From positions 32,001 to 96,000 of the IMG/VR virus record IMGVR_UViG_3300043392_000054: a stretch of 64,000 bases of DNA. One strand, given 5' to 3'. Within the stretch, counting starts at the first letter, position 1. Every line of letters starts with the position of its first letter. The notes beneath the pieces are model-generated. The model worked only from the letters and a program-made list of their open reading frames with translations, was not told the origin of the DNA and did no database searches. This document shows positions 17,525 to 63,303 of the stretch, one piece after another. The position numbers were made by a program, and so were the translations under genes. Source of the DNA: a virus.

Positions 17525-17617
17525 TGTTTTAAGGAGATATATAATAAAATAATCTTAAACATATTTTTTTATTTCACGTAAATTAATTATATTTGTATAT
17601 CAAAAAACAACAAAATT

Positions 17618-32154: not shown

Positions 32155-32181
32155 TTTTTAAAAAAGTTATAATATTAAGAG

Positions 32182-32189
32182 GATATATA
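32182..32189 (+). promoter_or_regulatory. Putative late promoter GATATATA
   Basis: About 25 nt upstream of the protease gene. Confidence 0.6.
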
Positions 32190-32212
32190 ATCAAAATATA
32201 GTATTAAAATAT

Positions 32213-35746: not shown

Positions 35747-35798
35747 TATAAAAGAGAAAGATATATAAAGAAACAGTTATTAATATAATACTCTAAAA

Positions 35799-36872
35799 AT
35801 GGAAAAAATTAACAATTTCGAAAACTGGTATAGTAAAATTGTAGAATCAATTTCAGTATCTAAAAAAGCTGCAGAAGCAAACGAAGATAATGCAGTACAA
35901 ACTGCAGATGTTACAAATGCTACAACTTCAGCAGAAACTTCAAAAGCTAATATAATTAGCGATGTCGATTCTATTATGAATACTCTTTCTCAATTATCTG
36001 TTCAAATTAAAGAATCTATTGATTCTATTGATTTATTTGAAAGCGAAGAGGTAGAAATTTTAGAAGAAGATGTAATTAATGAATTAACGGCTGGAGAAGC
36101 TGGTAGTAAATTAGCAGATTGGATTTTTTATGCCCCTAAATATAGAAATATGCAAAAGAAAATCAATAAGATGAAGCTTAATGCTTTAGATATTCAAATT
36201 GCAGTTGATAATTTAGGAGGTTCTGAACAAGAAAGAGCTAAAGCAGATGCATTAAGAGCTAAAAAATCAACATTATCTCAACAAATATCTGATTTACAAT
36301 CTGCTGTAAATGATAAAGCAAAAGAAAGAGGAGAATATATTCAAAAGGTATTAAGCTCTGAAAAGATTAAAGGTCAAATGGAATTAGTTAAACGTTCTTC
36401 TGGTCAAGAAGATGACCCATCTAAGAAAAAGAGTTTAGCAGATTCTATGAAAGAATTACAAGCTAGATTTCAAGAAGAGGAAGCTGCTATTGCTAAATTA
36501 AAAGATAAAGCTAAACAAGACGGCGCTAAAAAGGCAAACAAAGAAAATGTCGCAGATAAAAGAGCAAAGGAACAAGCTGAAGCCGATAAAGAGGCTGCAG
36601 ATAAAGCTAAAGAAAAGCCCGAAGCTAAAGAACCTAAGAAAAAAGAGAAACCATCAGCAAAAGAATCTTTATTTATTGCTGCAACTGAATTAGGTTTAAA
36701 TGAAATGGCAGCTGAAATTTCATCTAAGCAAGATTGGCAATTTGAAGACAACTCGGCATTATATGTTAAATATAATACAGAAATAGTTAAACAACGTTCT
36801 ATTAATAAATTAAATGAATCACGTCATCAAAATTTATCAATTGCAGATAAATTTAGAATGTTATTAGACTAA
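35799..36872 (+). CDS. Late coiled-coil protein, probably head-internal
   Basis: GATATATA at 35760; IVES, IKES, LFES, INEL, LNES sites; K/E-rich segment. Confidence 0.55.
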   Translation: MEKINNFENWYSKIVESISVSKKAAEANEDNAVQTADVTNATTSAETSKANIISDVDSIMNTLSQLSVQIKESIDSIDLFESEEVEILEEDVINELTAGEAGSKLADWIFYAPKYRNMQKKINKMKLNALDIQIAVDNLGGSEQERAKADALRAKKSTLSQQISDLQSAVNDKAKERGEYIQKVLSSEKIKGQMELVKRSSGQEDDPSKKKSLADSMKELQARFQEEEAAIAKLKDKAKQDGAKKANKENVADKRAKEQAEADKEAADKAKEKPEAKEPKKKEKPSAKESLFIAATELGLNEMAAEISSKQDWQFEDNSALYVKYNTEIVKQRSINKLNESRHQNLSIADKFRMLLD

Positions 36873-37443: not shown

Positions 37444-38394
37444 ATGGTTAACGCACTATTTACAGAAAAGTATCGTCCTAAAAATTTAGATGAATTAATT
37501 TTACCAGAAAGGGTAATGAATAAGTTTAAAAATGGTTTAACGCAAAATGTATTGTTTGCAGGTTCACCTGGAACAGGCAAAACATCAACTGCTAAAGCTA
37601 TTATTAATCAATTTGAATTACCATATTTGTATATCAATGCATCGCGAGACACTTCAGTGGATGTTATTAGAACTCAAATCACAGATTTTTGCTCTACCAT
37701 GTCAATCCTAGATGACCGTGATAAATTTAAAGTAGTTATACTAGATGAGGTCGATGGTGTGTCAGACCAGTTCTTTAAAGCTCTGAGAGCAACGATGGAA
37801 CAATTTGCTTCAAACTCTAGATTTATTGCTACCTGTAATTACATTAATAAGTTACCAGATGCTATTCTTTCTCGTTTTGAAGTCATTAATTTTGATTTTG
37901 ATAAGTCAGAAGAAACAGAATTGACCAAAAAATATATTAAGCGCGTATATGATATTTGTGGTAAAGAAGGCATGACTATCGAAAAGCCAGCTTTAGTTGA
38001 ATTTGTAAAAAGAAACTTTCCAGACTTACGTTCTACTTTAAGCAAATTACAGGGTTATAAATCGCAAGGCACCGTTAATATTGGAATTGATGATGTAAAA
38101 CGTTTCAATTCGGTCTATAAAGATGTCTTTGACCTAATTTTTAATGAAACAGACCCTGTTAAAAACTATAAACTTTTAGTTAGTGAATATTCAAATAGAG
38201 TCGATGATGTATTAGAAATGTTAGGGAGCGATTTCATTGAATATATTCAAGCTGAGAAACCAAATAATATTAAAAATATACCCCAAATTATAATTACAGT
38301 AGCAGAGCACCAAGCACAGAGAATTCACGTAATTGACCCAATCATTACAATGTTATCTTGCGTTTATCGTATACAAGAAATAGTTAGGTCTTAA
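37444..38394 (+). CDS. Clamp loader AAA+ subunit (gp44 / RFC-like)
   Basis: EKYRP, GSPGTGKT, ILDEVD, SRF. Confidence 0.92.
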   Translation: MVNALFTEKYRPKNLDELILPERVMNKFKNGLTQNVLFAGSPGTGKTSTAKAIINQFELPYLYINASRDTSVDVIRTQITDFCSTMSILDDRDKFKVVILDEVDGVSDQFFKALRATMEQFASNSRFIATCNYINKLPDAILSRFEVINFDFDKSEETELTKKYIKRVYDICGKEGMTIEKPALVEFVKRNFPDLRSTLSKLQGYKSQGTVNIGIDDVKRFNSVYKDVFDLIFNETDPVKNYKLLVSEYSNRVDDVLEMLGSDFIEYIQAEKPNNIKNIPQIIITVAEHQAQRIHVIDPIITMLSCVYRIQEIVRS

Positions 38395-45867: not shown

Positions 45868-45925
45868 TATAATTTCATAATAAGCATAGATATATAGAAT
45901 ATAAAAAAAATAATACTCAAAAATT

Positions 45926-50373: not shown

Positions 50374-50587
50374 GACTAAGTTTTATATGATGTATCACTT
50401 GAAGTTACAACCTTCAGAAATTGATGCATTTGATTATTACGAATACCATTATTATATTAAAGATATGACAGAGGTATTAAAGAAACAAAAGGAGAATCAA
50501 GATAGTGAACAGCAACAACAGCCGAGCACTAAAATGCCAACCTTTAAGCAACCAAGCTTTAAAATGCCATCGATGCCTAAAAGATAG
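50288..50587 (+). CDS. gp51-like short chaperone ORF (true start uncertain; possibly reached by frameshift)
   Basis: SLQNFFKTKFYMMYHLKLQPSEID...YEY resembles gp51-like (L-x-NYYKTNF...HHK...EI...WE) peptides; overlaps the upstream ORF in the +1 frame. Confidence 0.6.
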   Translation: MRRYSFLSAFVTESNLFSLFKISLQNFFKTKFYMMYHLKLQPSEIDAFDYYEYHYYIKDMTEVLKKQKENQDSEQQQQPSTKMPTFKQPSFKMPSMPKR

Positions 50588-50618
50588 ATGGATATATACA
50601 AAAAAGAAATAGATTATT

Positions 50619-53396
50619 TTGAGTATTTTTAGAAGCCCTTTCGAAAAGCTTAGTTTAGAAAATCAACAAGAAATAGCAGATGCTGTCTGGATTACCGCAG
50701 AGTCGGTAATGCCAGGCGGTGCGCTATTTAATAAGGTTGATGAATTAATTAGGGCTGTAAAAAAACAATCTTCTGCAAGTAGTAAAGAAAGTTCATCAGG
50801 TTCTATGGGTTCTGCCATTATGATGAAACTTTTTGGTGGAAAGGCTATGTCAGCAATAGGAAAGGGTTTACAATTAATTGTAAAAGCTCTTAATTCTTTA
50901 AAAGGAACTGCTGAAGAAACTAAAGCTAAAATGGAGGCTATTGTAATTGGAGTAGATGCAATTGCAAAAATAGGTCCATCAATTCTTAAATTTGCGGGTT
51001 ATATGGCATTAGCAGCACCTTTATTAATCATAGGTGCTATTACTTCCCCTTTATTTGCACTTAGTGTATATTTAATTACAAAAGCTATTCAATTTGGAAC
51101 TAAGCCTTTAGCTGATGAAAAAACAAAGTTAGCTCTTGAAGGATTAAAAGATGTTGCAATAGCAATTTTAGCTTTAGGTGTTGCAATGGTTTTAGCTGTA
51201 CCATTATATGGATATGGTATTAAATCTCTTCCATATATAGCATTAACGTTAGTAGTTTTAGGAGGAGCATTTTTTGTATTAGATAAATTAGGAATTGCAG
51301 ATTCAATTAAGAAGGTTTCAATTGGTCTTATGTTTGCATCGGCCGCAATTGTAACTCTTTCGTTAGGTCTATTCTTTGCCTCTATGATTTTAGATGCTAT
51401 TCCAGATAAATGGACTACTTTATTTCAAGTTGCTGGAATAGTTTTAGCAGTTGGATTAATATTTTTTATTGTTGGTAAAGGAGCGGCTTCAATTATACAA
51501 GGCGCAATAGCAATGACTCTTGCCGTAATTCCAATTGCATTATTAGGATTATCTATTGGTTTATTCTCGGCAATGGTACCTCCAACTGAAGAAGGTTGGA
51601 TTATGTTAGCTCAAGTGGGCGCTGCATTATTAGGCATTGGAGCTTTAATGGCACTTGCAGGTACAGTAGCACCATTTATTTTAGCTGGTGCTGTTGCAAT
51701 GGGAGTAGCAGGATTAGCTCTTTTATTTATTGCAGGTGGAGTTGCAGCATTTGCTCAATTATTTAAAACAGGTGGATTAGAAAATTTATTAGCTGATTCA
51801 GGTCACGTAACTGATTCCTTTTTAGGCTTTGGCGGTGGTAGAATGATGTCCAAAATGGAATACTTTATGTATTCATTAGCTAATTCATTCTTATTAAATC
51901 CATTAGCTATTGCATCTATGTATGCTTCTGCTCCAGCTATGATTTTAGTAGGTCTTTCTTTATTAAGTGTTGCAAAGGGTATTGAAGCTTTTCAAAGACT
52001 TAAAATAAATTATGACGTTTTACCAAATCAAATAGAAAAAGTTACGACTGTTTTAGCTAATACATTTGGTAAAATTGGTTCTAAATTCCCAGGCGGTAGA
52101 AATTTCTTATCGTTTGTTGGCCTTGGCTCTCAATCTGCTGTAGCAGACGGTATAGATGCCGTATTAGGAATGGGTAATGCTTTAGGTTCTATTGCTGAAG
52201 GTTTAGTAGCAATGGCATCTTTAAAATTCCCGATTTATCAAGGCACTAAAATTGTTGGTTATAAAACTATGACTAGTGATACCTTTACTAAAGTATCAGT
52301 AAATGCAAGCATGATAACCAATGTATTAGCTGATGTATTTGGAGAAATTGGAAGAAAGTATCCAGGTGGTAGAAACTTATTTGGTCTGGGTTCAGGTCAA
52401 TCTGACGTTGTTGATGGAGTTAATGCTGTTACAGGTATGGGAGATGCTGTAGCTGAAATAGCGAAAGGTGCTCAATTAATGGCAGACCTAAAATTCCCAG
52501 TTTATGATAGTAACGGGAAAATTGTAAGCTATCATTCTTTAGATGCAAATGCTTTACAAAGAATCAAAACTAATACTCAAAGTTTAGCATTGGGCTTTAC
52601 AGCAGTGTTCGGTTCTATTGGTAAAAGCCCAGATGCTGAAGATAGTTGGGGTTGGTTTGGTAAATCTAATATTGAAAGAGGTATTTCATTAGTAGAAGAT
52701 TTTTCAAACCCTATTCATAAATTAGTTCAAACTGCAACTTTAATTGTTTCTAATAAATTAGACCCTGCAGCTTTAAAATCTAAAATTACAGGTATAATAG
52801 ATGCATTTACAACAGCTTATGCTAAAGTTGGAACTGCCAAAGAAGTAGATGCAGGTTTAGTATCGTTAACAGGTTTATTAGCTGATAATTTAAAGAGAGT
52901 AAGTGATAATGCAAATGGCTTTAGTAGATTTGTTGACAGTTATGGTAGATATGTAAATCACTTTGTTAAATTTAAAGATACTGTAAATCAATTCGATAAA
53001 GAGAATTTAAAATTAACAAATGAATTATTCCAAGGTTTAACATATTTAACTAAGACCGATGACGCTATCGAAAAAATGGGAGAACAATTAGTTTCTGCTA
53101 TTGATAAATTAGCAACAATGATTGAAGAAGCCAAAACAACAATTACAGCTTCTGGTGAAAAGCAAGCCGGCGTTATGGAAACAGTTGGAAATGCTGTTAC
53201 AACTGGTATGAATACTGTTAAAGGAGCATTAGGCGTAACACCTGATACTCCAGCCACAAAAGACCCTAAAGCAAAAGACCCTAAGGGAGCAACACCTGCC
53301 GCAAGTACAAATGTTGATGGATTAATTGCTTCAATGAATGAATTAATTGCAAGATTAGATAGTTCTGCAAATCCTATTAGAGTTAGACAAGTTTAA
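50619..53396 (+). CDS. Tape measure protein
   Basis: 925 aa, long Ala/Gly-rich hydrophobic helical stretch, follows the chaperone genes; TTG start; GATATATA at 50591. Confidence 0.75.
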   Translation: MSIFRSPFEKLSLENQQEIADAVWITAESVMPGGALFNKVDELIRAVKKQSSASSKESSSGSMGSAIMMKLFGGKAMSAIGKGLQLIVKALNSLKGTAEETKAKMEAIVIGVDAIAKIGPSILKFAGYMALAAPLLIIGAITSPLFALSVYLITKAIQFGTKPLADEKTKLALEGLKDVAIAILALGVAMVLAVPLYGYGIKSLPYIALTLVVLGGAFFVLDKLGIADSIKKVSIGLMFASAAIVTLSLGLFFASMILDAIPDKWTTLFQVAGIVLAVGLIFFIVGKGAASIIQGAIAMTLAVIPIALLGLSIGLFSAMVPPTEEGWIMLAQVGAALLGIGALMALAGTVAPFILAGAVAMGVAGLALLFIAGGVAAFAQLFKTGGLENLLADSGHVTDSFLGFGGGRMMSKMEYFMYSLANSFLLNPLAIASMYASAPAMILVGLSLLSVAKGIEAFQRLKINYDVLPNQIEKVTTVLANTFGKIGSKFPGGRNFLSFVGLGSQSAVADGIDAVLGMGNALGSIAEGLVAMASLKFPIYQGTKIVGYKTMTSDTFTKVSVNASMITNVLADVFGEIGRKYPGGRNLFGLGSGQSDVVDGVNAVTGMGDAVAEIAKGAQLMADLKFPVYDSNGKIVSYHSLDANALQRIKTNTQSLALGFTAVFGSIGKSPDAEDSWGWFGKSNIERGISLVEDFSNPIHKLVQTATLIVSNKLDPAALKSKITGIIDAFTTAYAKVGTAKEVDAGLVSLTGLLADNLKRVSDNANGFSRFVDSYGRYVNHFVKFKDTVNQFDKENLKLTNELFQGLTYLTKTDDAIEKMGEQLVSAIDKLATMIEEAKTTITASGEKQAGVMETVGNAVTTGMNTVKGALGVTPDTPATKDPKAKDPKGATPAASTNVDGLIASMNELIARLDSSANPIRVRQV
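52060..52640 (+). repeat. About 90-aa internal tandem repeat in the tape measure protein
   Basis: FGKIGSKFPGGRN...DGIDAVLGMG...LKFPIY versus FGEIGRKYPGGRN...DGVNAVTGMG...LKFPVY, plus a partial third copy (FGSIGK). Confidence 0.75.
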
Positions 53397-55906: not shown

Positions 55907-55991
55907 GGAGAGTTGGCAGAGCGGTCGAACGCGTCGGTCTTGAAAACCGAAGACTGTAACAGGTCCGGGGGTTCGAATCCCTCACTCTCCT
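55907..55991 (+). tRNA. tRNA-Ser(TGA), CCA not encoded
   Basis: Acceptor GGAGAGT/ACTCTCC, anticodon arm TCGGT-CTTGAAA-ACCGA, long variable arm, GGGGG-TTCGAAT-CCCTC T arm; followed by TCAGG. Confidence 0.93.
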
Positions 55992-55992
55992 C

Positions 55993-56924: not shown

Positions 56925-56936
56925 TAAATAATAGTG

Positions 56937-57521
56937 ATGGCACCACTTAAATTTATTCTACTCTCTTCTTTTTTATTTTTAGGACTCAATTTCCCAGATA
57001 CTGTATTAGTTAAAAATGATGTTTATTCAATTGAATATTCTGAAAAGCTAGAACAACCTGTTAATATTGAATATACCGTAGATTGTTCTCATGCATCGGG
57101 TATAATTTATTCTAGATTTGGTATGAACTTTTATACTGAAAAAGGAATTAAAACATCTGATGATAATGATTACAAAAGTAATATTTGGGATAGAGGTCAC
57201 ATGGCACCAGCTGCAGATTTTAGCTGTGATTTAGATAAATTAAAGAAAACGTTTTCATATGTTAATTGTGCATTACAACATAAAGACCTAAATAGAGGAG
57301 CATGGAAAGACTTAGAAGAATATGAAAGAGAACTTGCATTTAAGTCTATAGTAAGTATTAAGATACAAGTAGAATTTAATCAAAGTAAAACATTAAGCAC
57401 AGGAGCAACTATTCCATCAGGATTTACAAAAACTATTTTCATAAACGGTAAATTTTACCAATCTTATTATTTTCCAAATAGCAAACCCATTCAATCTTTT
57501 GAAAAATATTTAGTAAAATAA
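56937..57521 (+). CDS. Sugar-nonspecific DNA/RNA endonuclease (NucA/EndA family) with signal peptide
   Basis: DRGHMAPAADF, ALQHKDLNRGAW, IPSGF; hydrophobic N-terminus. Confidence 0.88.
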   Translation: MAPLKFILLSSFLFLGLNFPDTVLVKNDVYSIEYSEKLEQPVNIEYTVDCSHASGIIYSRFGMNFYTEKGIKTSDDNDYKSNIWDRGHMAPAADFSCDLDKLKKTFSYVNCALQHKDLNRGAWKDLEEYERELAFKSIVSIKIQVEFNQSKTLSTGATIPSGFTKTIFINGKFYQSYYFPNSKPIQSFEKYLVK

Positions 57522-60706: not shown

Positions 60707-61441
60707 ATGCCACAAATATTTAAAGTAGGAGGTTGCGTAAGAGATAAGTTACTTGGAATAGAATCTAAGGACATTGATTTTACATTTGTCTTAGATGATG
60801 AAAGAACTGTTGAAGAGGGTTTTGAAATCATGAAAGATTGGTTAGATGACCATGATTTTACTATCTTTTTAAGCACTCCAGAATGTTTTACAATCAGAGC
60901 TAAGTTTCCATCAGGCCACAAAAATGAAGGCATGGTAGCTGACTTTGTGTTAGCCAGAAAGGAAGTTGGCTACGAAGAAGGAACTCGCAGACCTATTTTA
61001 GAAATTGGAACCTTAGAAGATGATTTAATTCGTCGAGATTTTACGGTTAATGCAATCGCAGAAAACGAAGACGGCATGCTAATCGACCCATTTGGTGGAG
61101 GTCAAGATATTATTGATGGAGTTTTAAGAACACCAATGGACCCAATGGTCACTTTAATGGATGACCCATTACGAATCTTACGAGCTTTTAGATTCTCATT
61201 AACTAAGAACTTCTTAATGGATGAGAAATTACAAGCTGCTATTTCACAGCGAGAAGCATGGGACAAAATGAAATTGGTAGTTAGTCAAGAGCGCATTAGA
61301 GAAGAACTCACTAAATGTTTTAAGCATGATACAATTTCTACCCTAGGCATGTTATTTGTAATTGAAGAACAGATTCCTGGAGTTGTTGCTGATATTTTAC
61401 TTGCAAATGGATTGTGGTTGAAACCAACTACAGAATTATAG
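60707..61441 (+). CDS. cca: Class II tRNA nucleotidyltransferase (CCA-adding / poly(A) polymerase family), compact
   Basis: VGGCVRD, KDIDF, RRDFTVNA, DDPLRILRAFRF, ERIREELTK. Confidence 0.85.
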   Translation: MPQIFKVGGCVRDKLLGIESKDIDFTFVLDDERTVEEGFEIMKDWLDDHDFTIFLSTPECFTIRAKFPSGHKNEGMVADFVLARKEVGYEEGTRRPILEIGTLEDDLIRRDFTVNAIAENEDGMLIDPFGGGQDIIDGVLRTPMDPMVTLMDDPLRILRAFRFSLTKNFLMDEKLQAAISQREAWDKMKLVVSQERIREELTKCFKHDTISTLGMLFVIEEQIPGVVADILLANGLWLKPTTEL

Positions 61442-61584: not shown

Positions 61585-61932
61585 ATGCAAGACGAATCAA
61601 TCCGACCATGGGGTCATTATGAAATTTTATCAGAATCATCTCATAGTAAAGTAAAACAAATTACAGTTAAACCAGGTAAAAGACTTTCATATCAATATCA
61701 TCATCATAGGTCTGAGATTTGGATTATTGTTTCAGGTAGTGGAATTTTTACCCTAGATGGACAAACTTCAATGGTTATTGTAGGAGATACATTACGTATA
61801 CCAGTAGAAGCAAGGCATCGAATAGAAAACAATAGTCAAGACCAGGATTTAATATTCATAGAAGTTCAACGAGGAACCTATTTTGGAGAAGATGACATCA
61901 TTAGAATTGAAGATGATTTTGATAGAAAATAA
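61585..61932 (+). CDS. Cupin, mannose-6-phosphate isomerase type II C-terminal-like
   Basis: RPWGHY, VKPGKRLSYQYHHHRSEIW, HRIEN, EDDIIRIEDD. Confidence 0.85.
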   Translation: MQDESIRPWGHYEILSESSHSKVKQITVKPGKRLSYQYHHHRSEIWIIVSGSGIFTLDGQTSMVIVGDTLRIPVEARHRIENNSQDQDLIFIEVQRGTYFGEDDIIRIEDDFDRK

Positions 61933-61988
61933 TTTTAAAATTTATTGAAAAAAAAGCCCAAATATTTTTTTATTTGGGCTTTTTTTTG

Positions 61989-61996
61989 TAGATTTG
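61989..61996 (+). promoter_or_regulatory. Bacteroidota-type -7 element overlapping an A/T-flanked hairpin
   Basis: TAGATTTG just after AAAAAAAGCCCAAAT...ATTTGGGCTTTTTTT. Confidence 0.55.
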
Positions 61997-62032: not shown

Positions 62033-62410
62033 ATGGGATGTTTTAGCTTTATTTGCAAAGAGAGTGGTTTACCAGTTGCTTCAGATTCTTTTTCTGGCGA
62101 CGCTGTTCGTATGTACTTATTGGTAAATGGTAAAGTAGTTGAAGAGATGCGAGGTCATTATGATTCATATGGTAGAGTGTTTAAATCCGATTTTGATACA
62201 TCATTTGAATGGAAAATGGATTGGGACAAAGCAGTTGACTTAATGTTTGATGAAGATAAAAGTAATGGTATGGCTGTTGTTTTAGAAAAATACTTTAACG
62301 GTAATATACCAACTACTCGTAGTGAAAGCGACCGAAACCAAGGTTGGGGGAATCCAAATGGTGGACAAGCTAAAATTAGCGAACCTGTTCATATTGTTTA
62401 TGAATATTGA
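62033..62410 (+). CDS. Early hypothetical protein
   Basis: MGCFSFICK...GHYDSYGRV. Confidence 0.65.
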   Translation: MGCFSFICKESGLPVASDSFSGDAVRMYLLVNGKVVEEMRGHYDSYGRVFKSDFDTSFEWKMDWDKAVDLMFDEDKSNGMAVVLEKYFNGNIPTTRSESDRNQGWGNPNGGQAKISEPVHIVYEY

Positions 62411-62437: not shown

Positions 62438-62499
62438 TAAGGTCTTTTCCCGGTTGAAAGGTTATCTTTAAAGGGGACTTATAATTAAAAAAATCATAT

Positions 62500-63303
62500 A
62501 TGCCAGAATTAGCAGAATTAATACTAACGGCCGATTATATTAATGAGATTGCAAAAGACAAAGTCTTTTATGCTATAGTAAAAAATCCAGTGCACAAAGG
62601 CTTAGACATTTCACAAGATATACAAGCTCCTTTTACTATTAAAGCTAAAAGCAGAGGAAAAGAATTAAAGCTTGAACTTAATTCACTTCCAGATTCTAAT
62701 TTATATATTTCTGCTAATTTAATGATGACAATGGGTATGGCTGGTCATTTTAAATGGGTTAAAAATGGATTTGTAGAGAAGCACGCTCATCTTATATTTA
62801 AATCGGATGAAGGTTCTTTAGCCTTTGTGGATGTTAGACGGTTTGGTAAATGGAAATGGGGATATTGGGGAGAAGACCGAGGGCCAGACCCAATTAATGA
62901 CTTTCAAAACTTTGTCAGAAATATTAAAAACAATCTTCATAAAAGGGATTTTGATAAGCCTATTTGTGAAGTCTTAATGAATCAAAAATACTTTAATGGT
63001 ATTGGTAACTATTTAAGAGCTGAAATCTTATACAGGACTGATATTAATCCATTTATGTCAGCTAGACAAGCATTACAATTAGCTCCTGAAATTTATAAGC
63101 TATGTAAATGGGCACCGATGCAAGCCTATAATTTAGGAGGAGGTCAATTAAAAGATTGGCAAAATCCATTCGGTCCATATAAAGAAATGATGAAAAGCTG
63201 GGATGAATTTATGATTTGCTATGGAAATAAAAATATGGCAAAGGTCGAAGACCGAAACGGTAGAACTTTCTGGTATGACCCTAAATGGAAGACTGATATA
63301 TAA
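62500..63303 (+). CDS. Fpg/Nei-family DNA glycosylase, NEIL1-like (zincless finger)
   Basis: N-terminal PE, RGKEL, GMAG, DVRRFG, H2TH FNGIGNYLRAEILY, C-terminal DRNGRTFWY with no CxxC. Confidence 0.9.
   Translation: MPELAELILTADYINEIAKDKVFYAIVKNPVHKGLDISQDIQAPFTIKAKSRGKELKLELNSLPDSNLYISANLMMTMGMAGHFKWVKNGFVEKHAHLIFKSDEGSLAFVDVRRFGKWKWGYWGEDRGPDPINDFQNFVRNIKNNLHKRDFDKPICEVLMNQKYFNGIGNYLRAEILYRTDINPFMSARQALQLAPEIYKLCKWAPMQAYNLGGGQLKDWQNPFGPYKEMMKSWDEFMICYGNKNMAKVEDRNGRTFWYDPKWKTDI

What the first reader, a model, noticed from the sequence alone, without database searches (positions are those of the whole stretch)
62500..63303. Phage glycosylase that looks like eukaryotic NEIL1 rather than bacterial Fpg/Nei
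Seen: RGKELKL, GMAGHF, HAHLIF, FVDVRRFGKW, RGP, FDKPICEVLMNQKYFNGIGNYLRAEILYR and DRNGRTFWY with no zinc-finger cysteines. From memory, human NEIL1 has RGKELRL, GMSGSF, HAHLRF, FVDIRRFGRW, FDRPICEALLDQRFFNGIGNYLRAEILYR and DRHGRTIWF, and the zincless finger is a NEIL1 / mimivirus Nei1 trait. Inference: relevant to the origin of NEIL1. It carries a replication-class promoter, so it may repair oxidised or incompletely modified pyrimidines in hypermodified DNA, or attack host DNA.
Basis: partly seen in the sequence, partly recalled or inferred. Interest (0 to 1): 0.75.

Follow-up and report, generated by a model that had tools for sequence, protein, structure and literature searches.

The report
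NEIL1-type DNA repair glycosylase in phage
A large uncultured phage, probably of Bacteroidota, carries an intact DNA-repair enzyme far closer to animal NEIL1 than to bacterial Fpg/Nei; it belongs to a big, mostly phage-borne family that is the nearest known kin of eukaryotic NEIL1, but who gave the gene to whom cannot be resolved.

Summary
Window 62500-63303 (+) is an intact 267-aa ORF.

- **Similarity:** human NEIL1 scores E 1e-47, against 3e-9 for mimivirus Nei1, 1e-7 for Fpg and 0.1 for E. coli Nei. An AlphaFold model (pLDDT 91.8) superposes on NEIL1 at TM 0.86.
- **Active site:** catalytic and DNA-wedge residues and the zincless finger are kept.
- **Family:** about 2,500 metagenomic clusters and at least 360 IMG/VR contigs, spread over at least five phage genome layouts. 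The gene usually sits among replication and repair genes, and UvdE, FEN and a 3'-5' exonuclease flank it in 32 of 83 loci.
- **Not a host gene:** only 11 loci turned up in 185,579 prokaryotic species genomes. Chromosomal copies occur in Poribacteria and one Marinimicrobia MAG.
- **Phylogeny:** the prokaryote/phage forms and eukaryotic NEIL1 (animals, Amoebozoa, a euglenid) are deep sister lineages. Nesting in either direction is not rejected.
I found no support for hypermodified DNA (the phage has a canonical ThyA) or for a promoter class.

Most likely function: a bifunctional glycosylase/AP lyase repairing oxidised bases in phage DNA. This scan reached the same conclusion earlier on other phage genomes.

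The parts
62500..63303 (+). NEIL1-type DNA glycosylase/AP lyase gene, 267 aa, intact
   Evidence: ORF; NEIL1 E 1.2e-47; three Pfam domains; AF2 pLDDT 91.8; Foldseek top hit human NEIL1 5itx, TM 0.86, 37% identity
62500..62853 (+). N-terminal beta-sandwich catalytic domain (aa 1-118). It holds Pro2, Glu3, Glu6, Lys54, Met80, Arg113 and Phe115.
   Evidence: PF01149 E 7.6e-13 over residues 1-118. These residues are 95-100% conserved in 94 prokaryote/phage and 46 eukaryotic sequences. They align with human P2, E3, E6, K54, M81, R118 and F120.
62881..63069 (+). Helix-two-turn-helix DNA-binding motif (aa 128-190), including FNGIGNYLRAE
   Evidence: PF06831 E 4.8e-8, 33.3 bits, just under the 34.7 cut-off. 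The motif is near-invariant in the family.
63133..63198 (+). Flexible loop (aa 212-233) aligned with NEIL1's lesion-recognition loop. It carries the clade's own motif, GGGQLKDWxNP.
   Evidence: This is the lowest-confidence part of the model (pLDDT 56-70). W220 (77% W in the short clade) aligns with the eukaryotic Tyr (78%), and the eukaryotic forms have gaps here.
63205..63279 (+). Zincless finger (aa 236-260) with Tyr241, Asp251, Arg255 and Trp258
   Evidence: PF09292 Neil1-DNA_bind E 4e-6, 26.9 bits, over the cut-off of 25. There is a beta-hairpin at 247-259 in the model. R255 is 98% conserved and aligns with the Arg of human DRHGRTIWF.
62467..62485 (+). Promoter-like string TTTAAAGGGGACTTATAAT, 15 nt before the ATG; function unproven
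   Evidence: A similar TTTAAAGG...TATAAT lies before the ORF at 37444. Statistical support is weak.

Best explanation
The gene encodes an active, compact, NEIL1-type bifunctional DNA glycosylase/AP lyase. By analogy with NEIL1, it flips an oxidised base out of the helix (thymine glycol, 5-hydroxyuracil, dihydropyrimidines, hydantoins, Fapy lesions). Met80, Arg113 and Phe115 fill the gap left in the duplex. The N-terminal Pro2 amine attacks C1' to form a Schiff base, helped by Glu3 and Lys54. Beta,delta-elimination then cuts the strand and leaves a one-nucleotide gap with phosphate ends. The H2TH motif and the zincless finger (Arg255) hold the DNA backbone. The phage uses the enzyme to keep its own replicating DNA free of oxidative or photo-oxidative base damage in an illuminated, oxic aquatic host. 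Shown here: homology, fold, conserved residues, distribution and gene neighbourhoods. Inferred: enzymatic activity, substrates and benefit to the phage. In evolutionary terms the gene belongs to a large clade, carried by phages and a few bacteria, that is the sister lineage of eukaryotic NEIL1.
For: - **Sequence:** NEIL1 scores E 1e-47, against 3e-9 or weaker for every other Fpg/Nei subfamily in the PDB.
- **Domains:** all three NEIL1 Pfam domains match.
- **Structure:** the AF2 model has pLDDT 91.8, and its top 50 structural matches are all human NEIL1, at TM 0.86.
- **Conservation:** P2, E3, E6, K54, M80, R113, F115, N166, R173, Y241, D251, R255 and W258 are 85-100% conserved across 94 prokaryote/phage sequences. 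This indicates purifying selection on the catalytic machinery.
- **Context in relatives:** the gene sits in repair and replication modules. The layouts are FEN-x-x-x-UvdE-NEIL1L-3'5' exonuclease in 32 of 83 loci, next to DNA polymerase plus RNR in about 14 loci, and next to an ATP-dependent ligase in 3.
- **Carriers:** the nearest ESM Atlas clusters are 89-95% viral, mostly Uroviricota, and 360 IMG/VR stretches encode a relative.
- **Phage identity of this record:** portal, terminase and sheath genes are present.
Against: - No biochemistry exists for any member of this clade.
- In this phage the immediate neighbours are uncharacterised ORFs, not repair genes.
- No UvdE, Endo IV, Xth or PNK 3'-phosphatase turned up in the held 64% of the genome to process the 3'-phosphate. 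Downstream steps must therefore come from the host, from the missing part of the genome, or from unrecognised genes.
- The lesion loop differs from NEIL1's (no clear Lys/Arg242 equivalent), so the substrate range may differ.
Confidence: 0.8

Rival explanations
1. The enzyme is specialised for non-canonical bases rather than for damage. It might remove incompletely or wrongly modified pyrimidines from a hypermodified phage genome, or excise bases from host or competitor-phage DNA as a weapon.
For: From my own knowledge, NEIL1 has a broad pocket and reported activity on 5caC-type bases; the title of PMC5566547 says so. DNA glycosylases can act in phage-host conflict (bioRxiv 10.1101/2025.10.29.685425). 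The clade has its own conserved loop motif, GGGQLKDWxNP.
Against: - The phage has a canonical ThyA (equivalog score 301 against a cut-off of 108), and no ThyX or TGT/DpdA in the held part.
- The protein matches no PADLOC defence model.
- The same gene occurs in at least five unrelated phage layouts, next to UvdE, FEN, polymerase or ligase, and as a chromosomal gene that is the only Fpg/Nei-domain match found in each Poribacteria or Marinimicrobia MAG searched. That pattern fits a general repair enzyme.
- The preprint lists no H2TH-family defence glycosylase in the passages I read.
Confidence: 0.1
2. The protein serves mainly as an AP/dRP lyase or a replication-coupled lesion sensor, for example acting on single-stranded or fork DNA or unhooking cross-links as NEIL1 and NEIL3 do, rather than as a duplex base-excision enzyme.
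For: The gene is placed among replication genes in several lineages: clamp-loader-like AAA, polymerase and exonucleases. By title, PMC5541308 assigns NEIL1 a pre-replicative role and PMC2078531 reports base excision repair of psoralen adducts.
Against: The complete glycosylase active site and the base-flipping wedge are conserved. Nothing in the sequence separates this role from ordinary glycosylase action. The metazoan C-terminal tail, which from my own knowledge mediates NEIL1's replisome contacts, is absent.
Confidence: 0.08
3. The gene is eukaryotic contamination, a chimeric assembly, or a very recent capture from an animal or protist.
For: High similarity to animal NEIL1.
Against: - The gene lies inside a 182.8-kb phage contig between phage ORFs on the same strand.
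- Its region has the same ~31% GC as the rest of the window.
- It has no introns and no eukaryotic tail.
- Hundreds of diverged phage homologues exist, at 35-96% identity.
- It falls in the prokaryote/phage clade, not among eukaryotes.
Confidence: 0.01

Closest known systems
Eukaryotic NEIL1 (endonuclease VIII-like 1; human structures 1TDH, 4NRV, 5ITQ-5ITY, 6LWA-6LWR, 8FTJ)
   Same: Same three-domain fold (TM 0.86) and 36-46% identity over the catalytic core. It shares Pro2/Glu3/Lys54, the Met/Arg/Phe wedge, the H2TH motif FNGIGNYLRAEILYR, and a zincless finger with the conserved Arg.
   Different: 267 aa, with no disordered C-terminal interaction tail. It lacks the metazoan insert after the H2TH. 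The lesion loop reads GGGQLKDWxNP rather than the GGKGYGSE type. The protein ends in a clade-specific PKW. It sits in the sister clade, not inside the eukaryotic clade, in the careful tree.
Mimivirus Nei1 (MvNei1, L315; PDB 3A42/3A45/3A46)
   Same: A virus-encoded Fpg/Nei enzyme with a zincless finger.
   Different: Only E 3e-9 to this protein, no closer than bacterial Fpg.
Bacterial Fpg/MutM and Nei (E. coli, Bacteroidota, Listeria)
   Same: Same superfamily, N-terminal Pro-Glu chemistry and H2TH.
   Different: They have a Cys4 zinc finger. This protein scores 73 bits against the Fpg equivalog cut-off of 203, and 34 bits against 252 for Nei. The two groups are separated by a long branch with 99/100 support. 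Host-phylum Fpg/Nei are all of the ordinary type.
Fpg-like genes of cultured phages (Bacillus phages G gp292, SP-10, Nachito; phrog_21295)
   Same: Phage-borne Fpg/Nei superfamily genes.
   Different: Only 25-29% identity, and they group with Fpg-type outgroups.

Membership tests
NEIL1 subfamily of Fpg/Nei glycosylases | Three-part fold: N-terminal beta-sandwich, H2TH, C-terminal beta-hairpin finger | tested here: met
   Pfam PF01149, PF06831 and PF09292; AF2 pLDDT 91.8; Foldseek TM 0.86 to human NEIL1
NEIL1 subfamily of Fpg/Nei glycosylases | Catalytic N-terminal Pro2, Glu3 and Lys54 | tested here: met
   MPE start and K54 in RGKEL, aligned with the human residues; 98-100% conserved in the clade
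NEIL1 subfamily of Fpg/Nei glycosylases | Zincless finger: no Cys4, with the conserved Arg (human R277) in D-x-x-G-R-T-x-W | tested here: met
   DRNGRTFWY at 251-259 and no CxxC pairs; PF09292 at 26.9 bits against a cut-off of 25; R255 98% conserved
NEIL1 subfamily of Fpg/Nei glycosylases | Void-filling residues Met81, Arg118 and Phe120 | tested here: met
   M80, R113 and F115 align with them; 95-97% conserved
NEIL1 subfamily of Fpg/Nei glycosylases | Closer in sequence to NEIL1 than to any other Fpg/Nei subfamily | tested here: met
   E 1e-47 against 3e-9 (MvNei1), 1e-7 (Fpg), 0.007-0.015 (NEIL2/NEIL3) and 0.1 (Nei)
NEIL1 subfamily of Fpg/Nei glycosylases | Branches inside the clade of eukaryotic NEIL1 orthologues | tested here: inconclusive
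   The careful tree gives a sister clade: short forms 93/42, eukaryotes 92/85. Holding eukaryotes with the window subclade is not rejected (p-AU 0.355). Holding the short clade with two eukaryotic rows scores 19 lnL better (p-AU 0.745).
NEIL1 subfamily of Fpg/Nei glycosylases | Disordered C-terminal protein-interaction tail of about 100 aa (metazoan NEIL1) | tested here: not met
   The protein ends 8 residues after the finger. Planoprotostelium NEIL1 (289 aa) is also compact.
NEIL1 subfamily of Fpg/Nei glycosylases | Lesion-recognition loop with Lys/Arg242 and Tyr244 | tested here: inconclusive
   W220 aligns with the eukaryotic Tyr. No clear equivalent of residue 242 exists, and the loop is longer with its own motif. 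Model confidence there is low.
NEIL1 subfamily of Fpg/Nei glycosylases | Glycosylase plus beta,delta-lyase activity on oxidised pyrimidines, hydantoins and Fapy lesions | not testable with these tools
   Needs enzyme assays
Bacterial Fpg (MutM) | Cys4 zinc finger and a score over the NCBIfam equivalog cut-off | tested here: not met
   No Cys4; TIGR00577 at 73 bits against 203
Bacterial endonuclease VIII (Nei) | Zinc finger and a score over the NCBIfam equivalog cut-off | tested here: not met
   NF007763 at 34 bits against 252; PDB Nei E 0.1

The most novel reading that the evidence does not exclude
One ancient gene transfer links phages or bacteria with an early eukaryote. In one version, eukaryotic NEIL1, a core animal repair enzyme, descends from this phage/bacterial lineage rather than from a mitochondrial Fpg/Nei. 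In the other, a single ancient escape of a protist NEIL1 seeded a family that has since spread through hundreds of phage lineages and into Poribacteria and Marinimicrobia chromosomes. The stated probability is for the phage/bacterium-to-eukaryote version. The reverse direction seems about as likely to me.
Probability: 0.35. Interest if true: 0.75.

Novelty: new member of a known kind. Interest (0 to 1): 0.55.

Why it matters
The one phylogeny of the family that I read treats NEIL1 as a metazoan clade ('MeNeil1', PMC3188539). A 2021 review proposes that H2TH glycosylases entered eukaryotes with mitochondria (PMC8307549). I found no paper describing NEIL1-type genes in bacteriophages or bacteria, although JGI's automatic annotation already labels them 'endonuclease VIII-like 1'.

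A large, diverse, compact prokaryote/phage sister clade has three uses. It gives an outgroup for polarising NEIL1 features such as the tail, the insert and the lesion loop. It makes the origin of NEIL1 testable. It also offers small, tail-less natural variants for structural and substrate studies. For phage biology, it shows that many aquatic phages carry their own oxidative base-excision enzyme, often coupled to UvdE and FEN.

Tried and rejected
- **GenBank phages:** a megablast of the region found nothing, and tblastn found only ordinary Fpg-like genes at 29% identity or less.
- **FastTree:** it placed eukaryotes inside the phage radiation, next to the window's subclade. Site-heterogeneous IQ-TREE runs did not reproduce this, so I treat it as model-sensitive.
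- **Free 'careful' search:** it missed a tree that scores 19 lnL better, and its bootstrap had not settled. Support values near the root are therefore rough.
- **Promoter class:** neither the consensus scan nor the motif search gave a significant class.
- **Own-genome searches:** UvdE, Endo IV, Xth, PNK3P, ThyX and TGT were negative, and the ATP-ligase match was weak (E 0.0016). The record is only 64% complete, so absence is not shown.
- **PADLOC:** no match.
- **The look-up of encoding contigs:** I could not inspect the 523-kb and ~240-kb contigs that carry family members, or the contigs of the unnamed long forms P0282 and P0285. I call those two eukaryotic only because of their long, low-complexity, Lys/Glu/Arg/Ala-rich tails.
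- **MvNei1 and plant/fungal Fpg:** I could not add them to the tree because no referable sequence was available.

Full report
**The observation**

Window 62500-63303 (+) is an intact ATG-started ORF of 267 aa. The protein has three cysteines and no CxxC pairs.

- **Pfam** finds the Fpg/Nei N-terminal domain (E 7.6e-13) and the H2TH (E 4.8e-8, 1.4 bits under its cut-off). It also finds the NEIL1-specific zincless-finger domain PF09292, over its cut-off.
- **PDB sequence search** gives NEIL1 E 1.2e-47, mimivirus Nei1 3e-9, Fpg 1e-7 to 1e-6, NEIL2/NEIL3 about 0.01 and E. coli Nei 0.1.
- **NCBIfam** bacterial Fpg and Nei equivalogs are missed by a wide margin: 73 bits against 203, and 34 against 252.
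- **Structure.** An AlphaFold2 model built on a 35-sequence alignment has mean pLDDT 91.8. Its best structural matches are all human NEIL1, at TM 0.86 and 35-37% identity.

**The host replicon**

The window is bases 32001-96000 of a 182,829-bp IMG/VR virus record that CheckV rates 64% complete. It is about 31% GC, with nearly all genes on one strand. It encodes portal, prohead protease, large terminase, tail sheath, RNR and SbcC-like proteins.

A DUF6089/OMP barrel and TAnnTTTG-like boxes before several genes point to a Bacteroidota host. So do the nearest relatives, which sit on phage-like contigs binned with Saprospirales and Flavobacteriaceae MAGs.

**The family**

- The word-indexed search found 2,479 clusters (90% identity) at E 1e-5 or better. 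The best 120 are all 251-295 aa and metagenomic, several on contigs of 100-520 kb.
- The exhaustive search of 50%-identity representatives found 173 clusters at E 1e-30 or better.
- The long forms (330-690 aa) are eukaryotic NEIL1:
  - molluscs, oyster, crab, tardigrade and tuatara;
  - the sponge Sycon and the ctenophore Mnemiopsis;
  - the amoebozoans Planoprotostelium and Mastigella;
  - the euglenid Ploeotia, known only from a transcriptome.
- The short forms are viral. IMG/VR holds 360 stretches that encode a relative. The nearest ESM Atlas clusters are 89-95% viral, mostly Uroviricota.
- Among 50,697 GenBank phage records, only ordinary Fpg-like genes appear, at 29% identity or less.

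**Not a host gene**

A pattern scan of one genome for each of 185,579 prokaryotic species gave only 11 loci, all in MAGs. The scan used the strict pattern NG[IV]GNY[LI]R[AS], so diverged members may have been missed.

- Two of the loci look phage-like. L002 has UvdE and FEN flanks. L003 is mostly unknown ORFs on one strand.
- Seven lie in Candidatus Poribacteria, and an eighth (L004, labelled only 'uncultured bacterium') shares their synteny and clade. One more lies in a Neomarinimicrobiota MAG.
- The bacterial copies are chromosomal. The Poribacteria gene is flanked by sulfatases, RlmL and an L,D-transpeptidase. The Marinimicrobia gene sits between ubiE, glutaredoxin, an OMP and a rhodopsin gene.
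- The Poribacteria loci fall into two syntenic groups. Gene GC equals flank GC, and one MAG carries both copies.
- In the five MAGs searched, the NEIL1-type gene is the only Fpg/Nei-domain match.
- In 61 sampled Bacteroidota genomes, 17 have an Fpg/Nei domain. The 13 loci I extracted are all ordinary Fpg or Nei types.

**Function**

Across 94 prokaryote/phage and 46 eukaryotic sequences, P2, E3, E6, K54, M80, R113, F115, N166, R173, Y241, D251, R255 and W258 are 85-100% conserved. These align with human P2, E3, E6, K54, M81, R118, F120 and the finger arginine. Their roles are from my own knowledge of the NEIL1 literature.

The short clade differs from metazoan NEIL1 in four ways:
- it lacks the C-terminal tail;
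- it lacks the insert after the H2TH;
- it has a longer loop, GGGQLKDWxNP, whose Trp aligns with the eukaryotic Tyr and which is the least confident part of the model;
- it ends in PKW.

Gene order in 83 loci shows at least five genome layouts:
- FEN-x-x-x-UvdE-NEIL1L-3'5' exonuclease, in 32 loci;
- NEIL1L followed at once, or within a few genes, by a guanylate-kinase-like gene, with a phosphoesterase further on, in about 20 loci;
- a sigma-like gene, then NEIL1L, then DNA polymerase and RNR, in about 14 loci;
- NEIL1L next to an ATP-dependent ligase, in 3 loci;
- one further layout.

In the window itself the neighbours are uncharacterised ORFs. A cupin, a CCA-adding-like enzyme and a non-specific nuclease lie further upstream. 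The recurrent repair and replication context, together with the chromosomal bacterial copies, favours a general oxidative-damage glycosylase/AP lyase.

I found no support for hypermodified DNA. The phage has one thymidylate-synthase-family gene, and it is a canonical ThyA by equivalog score. There is no ThyX or TGT/DpdA in the part held. No PADLOC model matches. The promoter-class claim could not be verified.

**Evolution**

NEIL1-type sequences form one group with 99/100 support, on a long stem away from Fpg and Nei of Salmonella, Listeria, E. coli and Bacteroidota. Inside that group the root moves with the method.

| Analysis | Result |
|---|---|
| FastTree, 145 rows | Eukaryotes (98) nested in phage diversity, beside the window's subclade (84) |
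| Quick C20 IQ-TREE | Short clade (98) nested among eukaryotes |
| Careful LG+C20 PMSF, 84 rows x 267 columns | Reciprocal monophyly: short 93/42 (96% of bootstrap trees), eukaryotes 92/85 (90%) |
| AU test, eukaryotes held with the window subclade | 12.6 lnL worse, p-AU 0.355, not rejected |
| AU test, short clade held with two unnamed long-tailed rows (P0282, P0285) | 19.4 lnL better than the free tree, p-AU 0.745 |

The branches that decide between these trees are only 0.03-0.14 substitutions per site. The two lineages are therefore deep sisters, and the donor cannot be named. The Poribacteria and Marinimicrobia copies group together (77/99) inside the phage-dominated clade.

**Prior knowledge**

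The 2011 Fpg/Nei phylogeny lists 'MeNeil1' as a metazoan clade (PMC3188539). A 2021 review suggests a mitochondrial source for H2TH glycosylases (PMC8307549). Six literature searches found nothing on phage or bacterial NEIL1-type genes.

This scan has already reported the same family on other phage genomes, with the same conclusion. New here:
- the chromosomal bacterial carriers;
- the neighbourhood census;
- the two AU tests;
- the negative checks on base modification.

**Verdict**

It is a new member of a known enzyme kind. Its interest lies in its phyletic position.

Noticed in passing
L005-L011 and L004 (Candidatus Poribacteria MAGs; L004 is labelled 'uncultured bacterium'); L012 (Neomarinimicrobiota MAG): These loci carry chromosomal NEIL1-type genes with cellular flanks: sulfatases, RlmL and YkuD in Poribacteria; ubiE, glutaredoxin and rhodopsin in L012. 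The Poribacteria loci form two syntenic groups, and one MAG carries both copies. In the five MAGs searched, the gene is the only Fpg/Nei-domain match found. These bacteria may use a NEIL1-type enzyme in place of Fpg/Nei.
   Followed up: partly
L025-L048 and other IMG/VR loci (32 of 83), e.g. L043:4949-5962 and L029:2427-3575: A conserved phage cassette reads FEN (5'-3' exonuclease), three small ORFs, a UvdE-like endonuclease, the NEIL1-type glycosylase, a PolB-type 3'-5' exonuclease, and then a ~900-aa protein with no family match. It may be a self-contained phage excision-repair module.
   Followed up: partly
Own genome outside the window: G000:C1:127861-128847 (L116:1486-2793): The thymidylate synthase ORF is 435 aa and matches the ThyA models in two or three stretches. 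It therefore carries an insertion of roughly 120-170 aa, possibly an intein or homing-endonuclease-type insert. I did not examine it.
   Followed up: no
window about 17527-17545, 32170-32200, 35760-35780, 45885-45905, 50580-50600: A recurring box, (A/G)GATATATA(A/T), lies before the prohead protease, the ORF at 35799, the tail sheath and the 925-aa ORF at 50619. It looks like a late-promoter motif. A separate TTATATTT(A/G)(C/T)A box, close to the Bacteroidota TAnnTTTG -7 element, lies before the ORFs at 1181, 7436, 17618 and 38460.
   Followed up: partly
window about 61956-61996: A GC-stem hairpin (GCCCAAAT...ATTTGGGC) followed by a T-run ends the cupin gene. A TAGATTTG box follows. The unknown 125-aa ORF at 62033 and the glycosylase gene may therefore form one transcription unit.
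   Followed up: no
window 56934-57521, 60707-61441, 61585-61932, 55907-55992: Upstream accessory genes include a DNA/RNA non-specific endonuclease (PF01223), a CCA-adding/poly(A) polymerase head-domain protein, and a mannose-6-phosphate-isomerase-type cupin. A tRNA-Ser(TGA) is also present.
   Followed up: no
L094:388-1233 (Bacillus phage G gp292): This gene is annotated as a formamidopyrimidine DNA glycosylase, but the annotated protein starts MLSLQPKV and lacks the N-terminal Pro-Glu catalytic dyad. The start may be mis-set, or the protein may not be an active glycosylase.
   Followed up: no
P0282 (587 aa) and P0285 (381 aa), metagenomic: Two NEIL1-type proteins of unknown organism have long tails rich in Lys, Glu, Arg and Ala. 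They branch at the junction of the eukaryotic and phage clades, so identifying their source would help to polarise the tree.
   Followed up: partly
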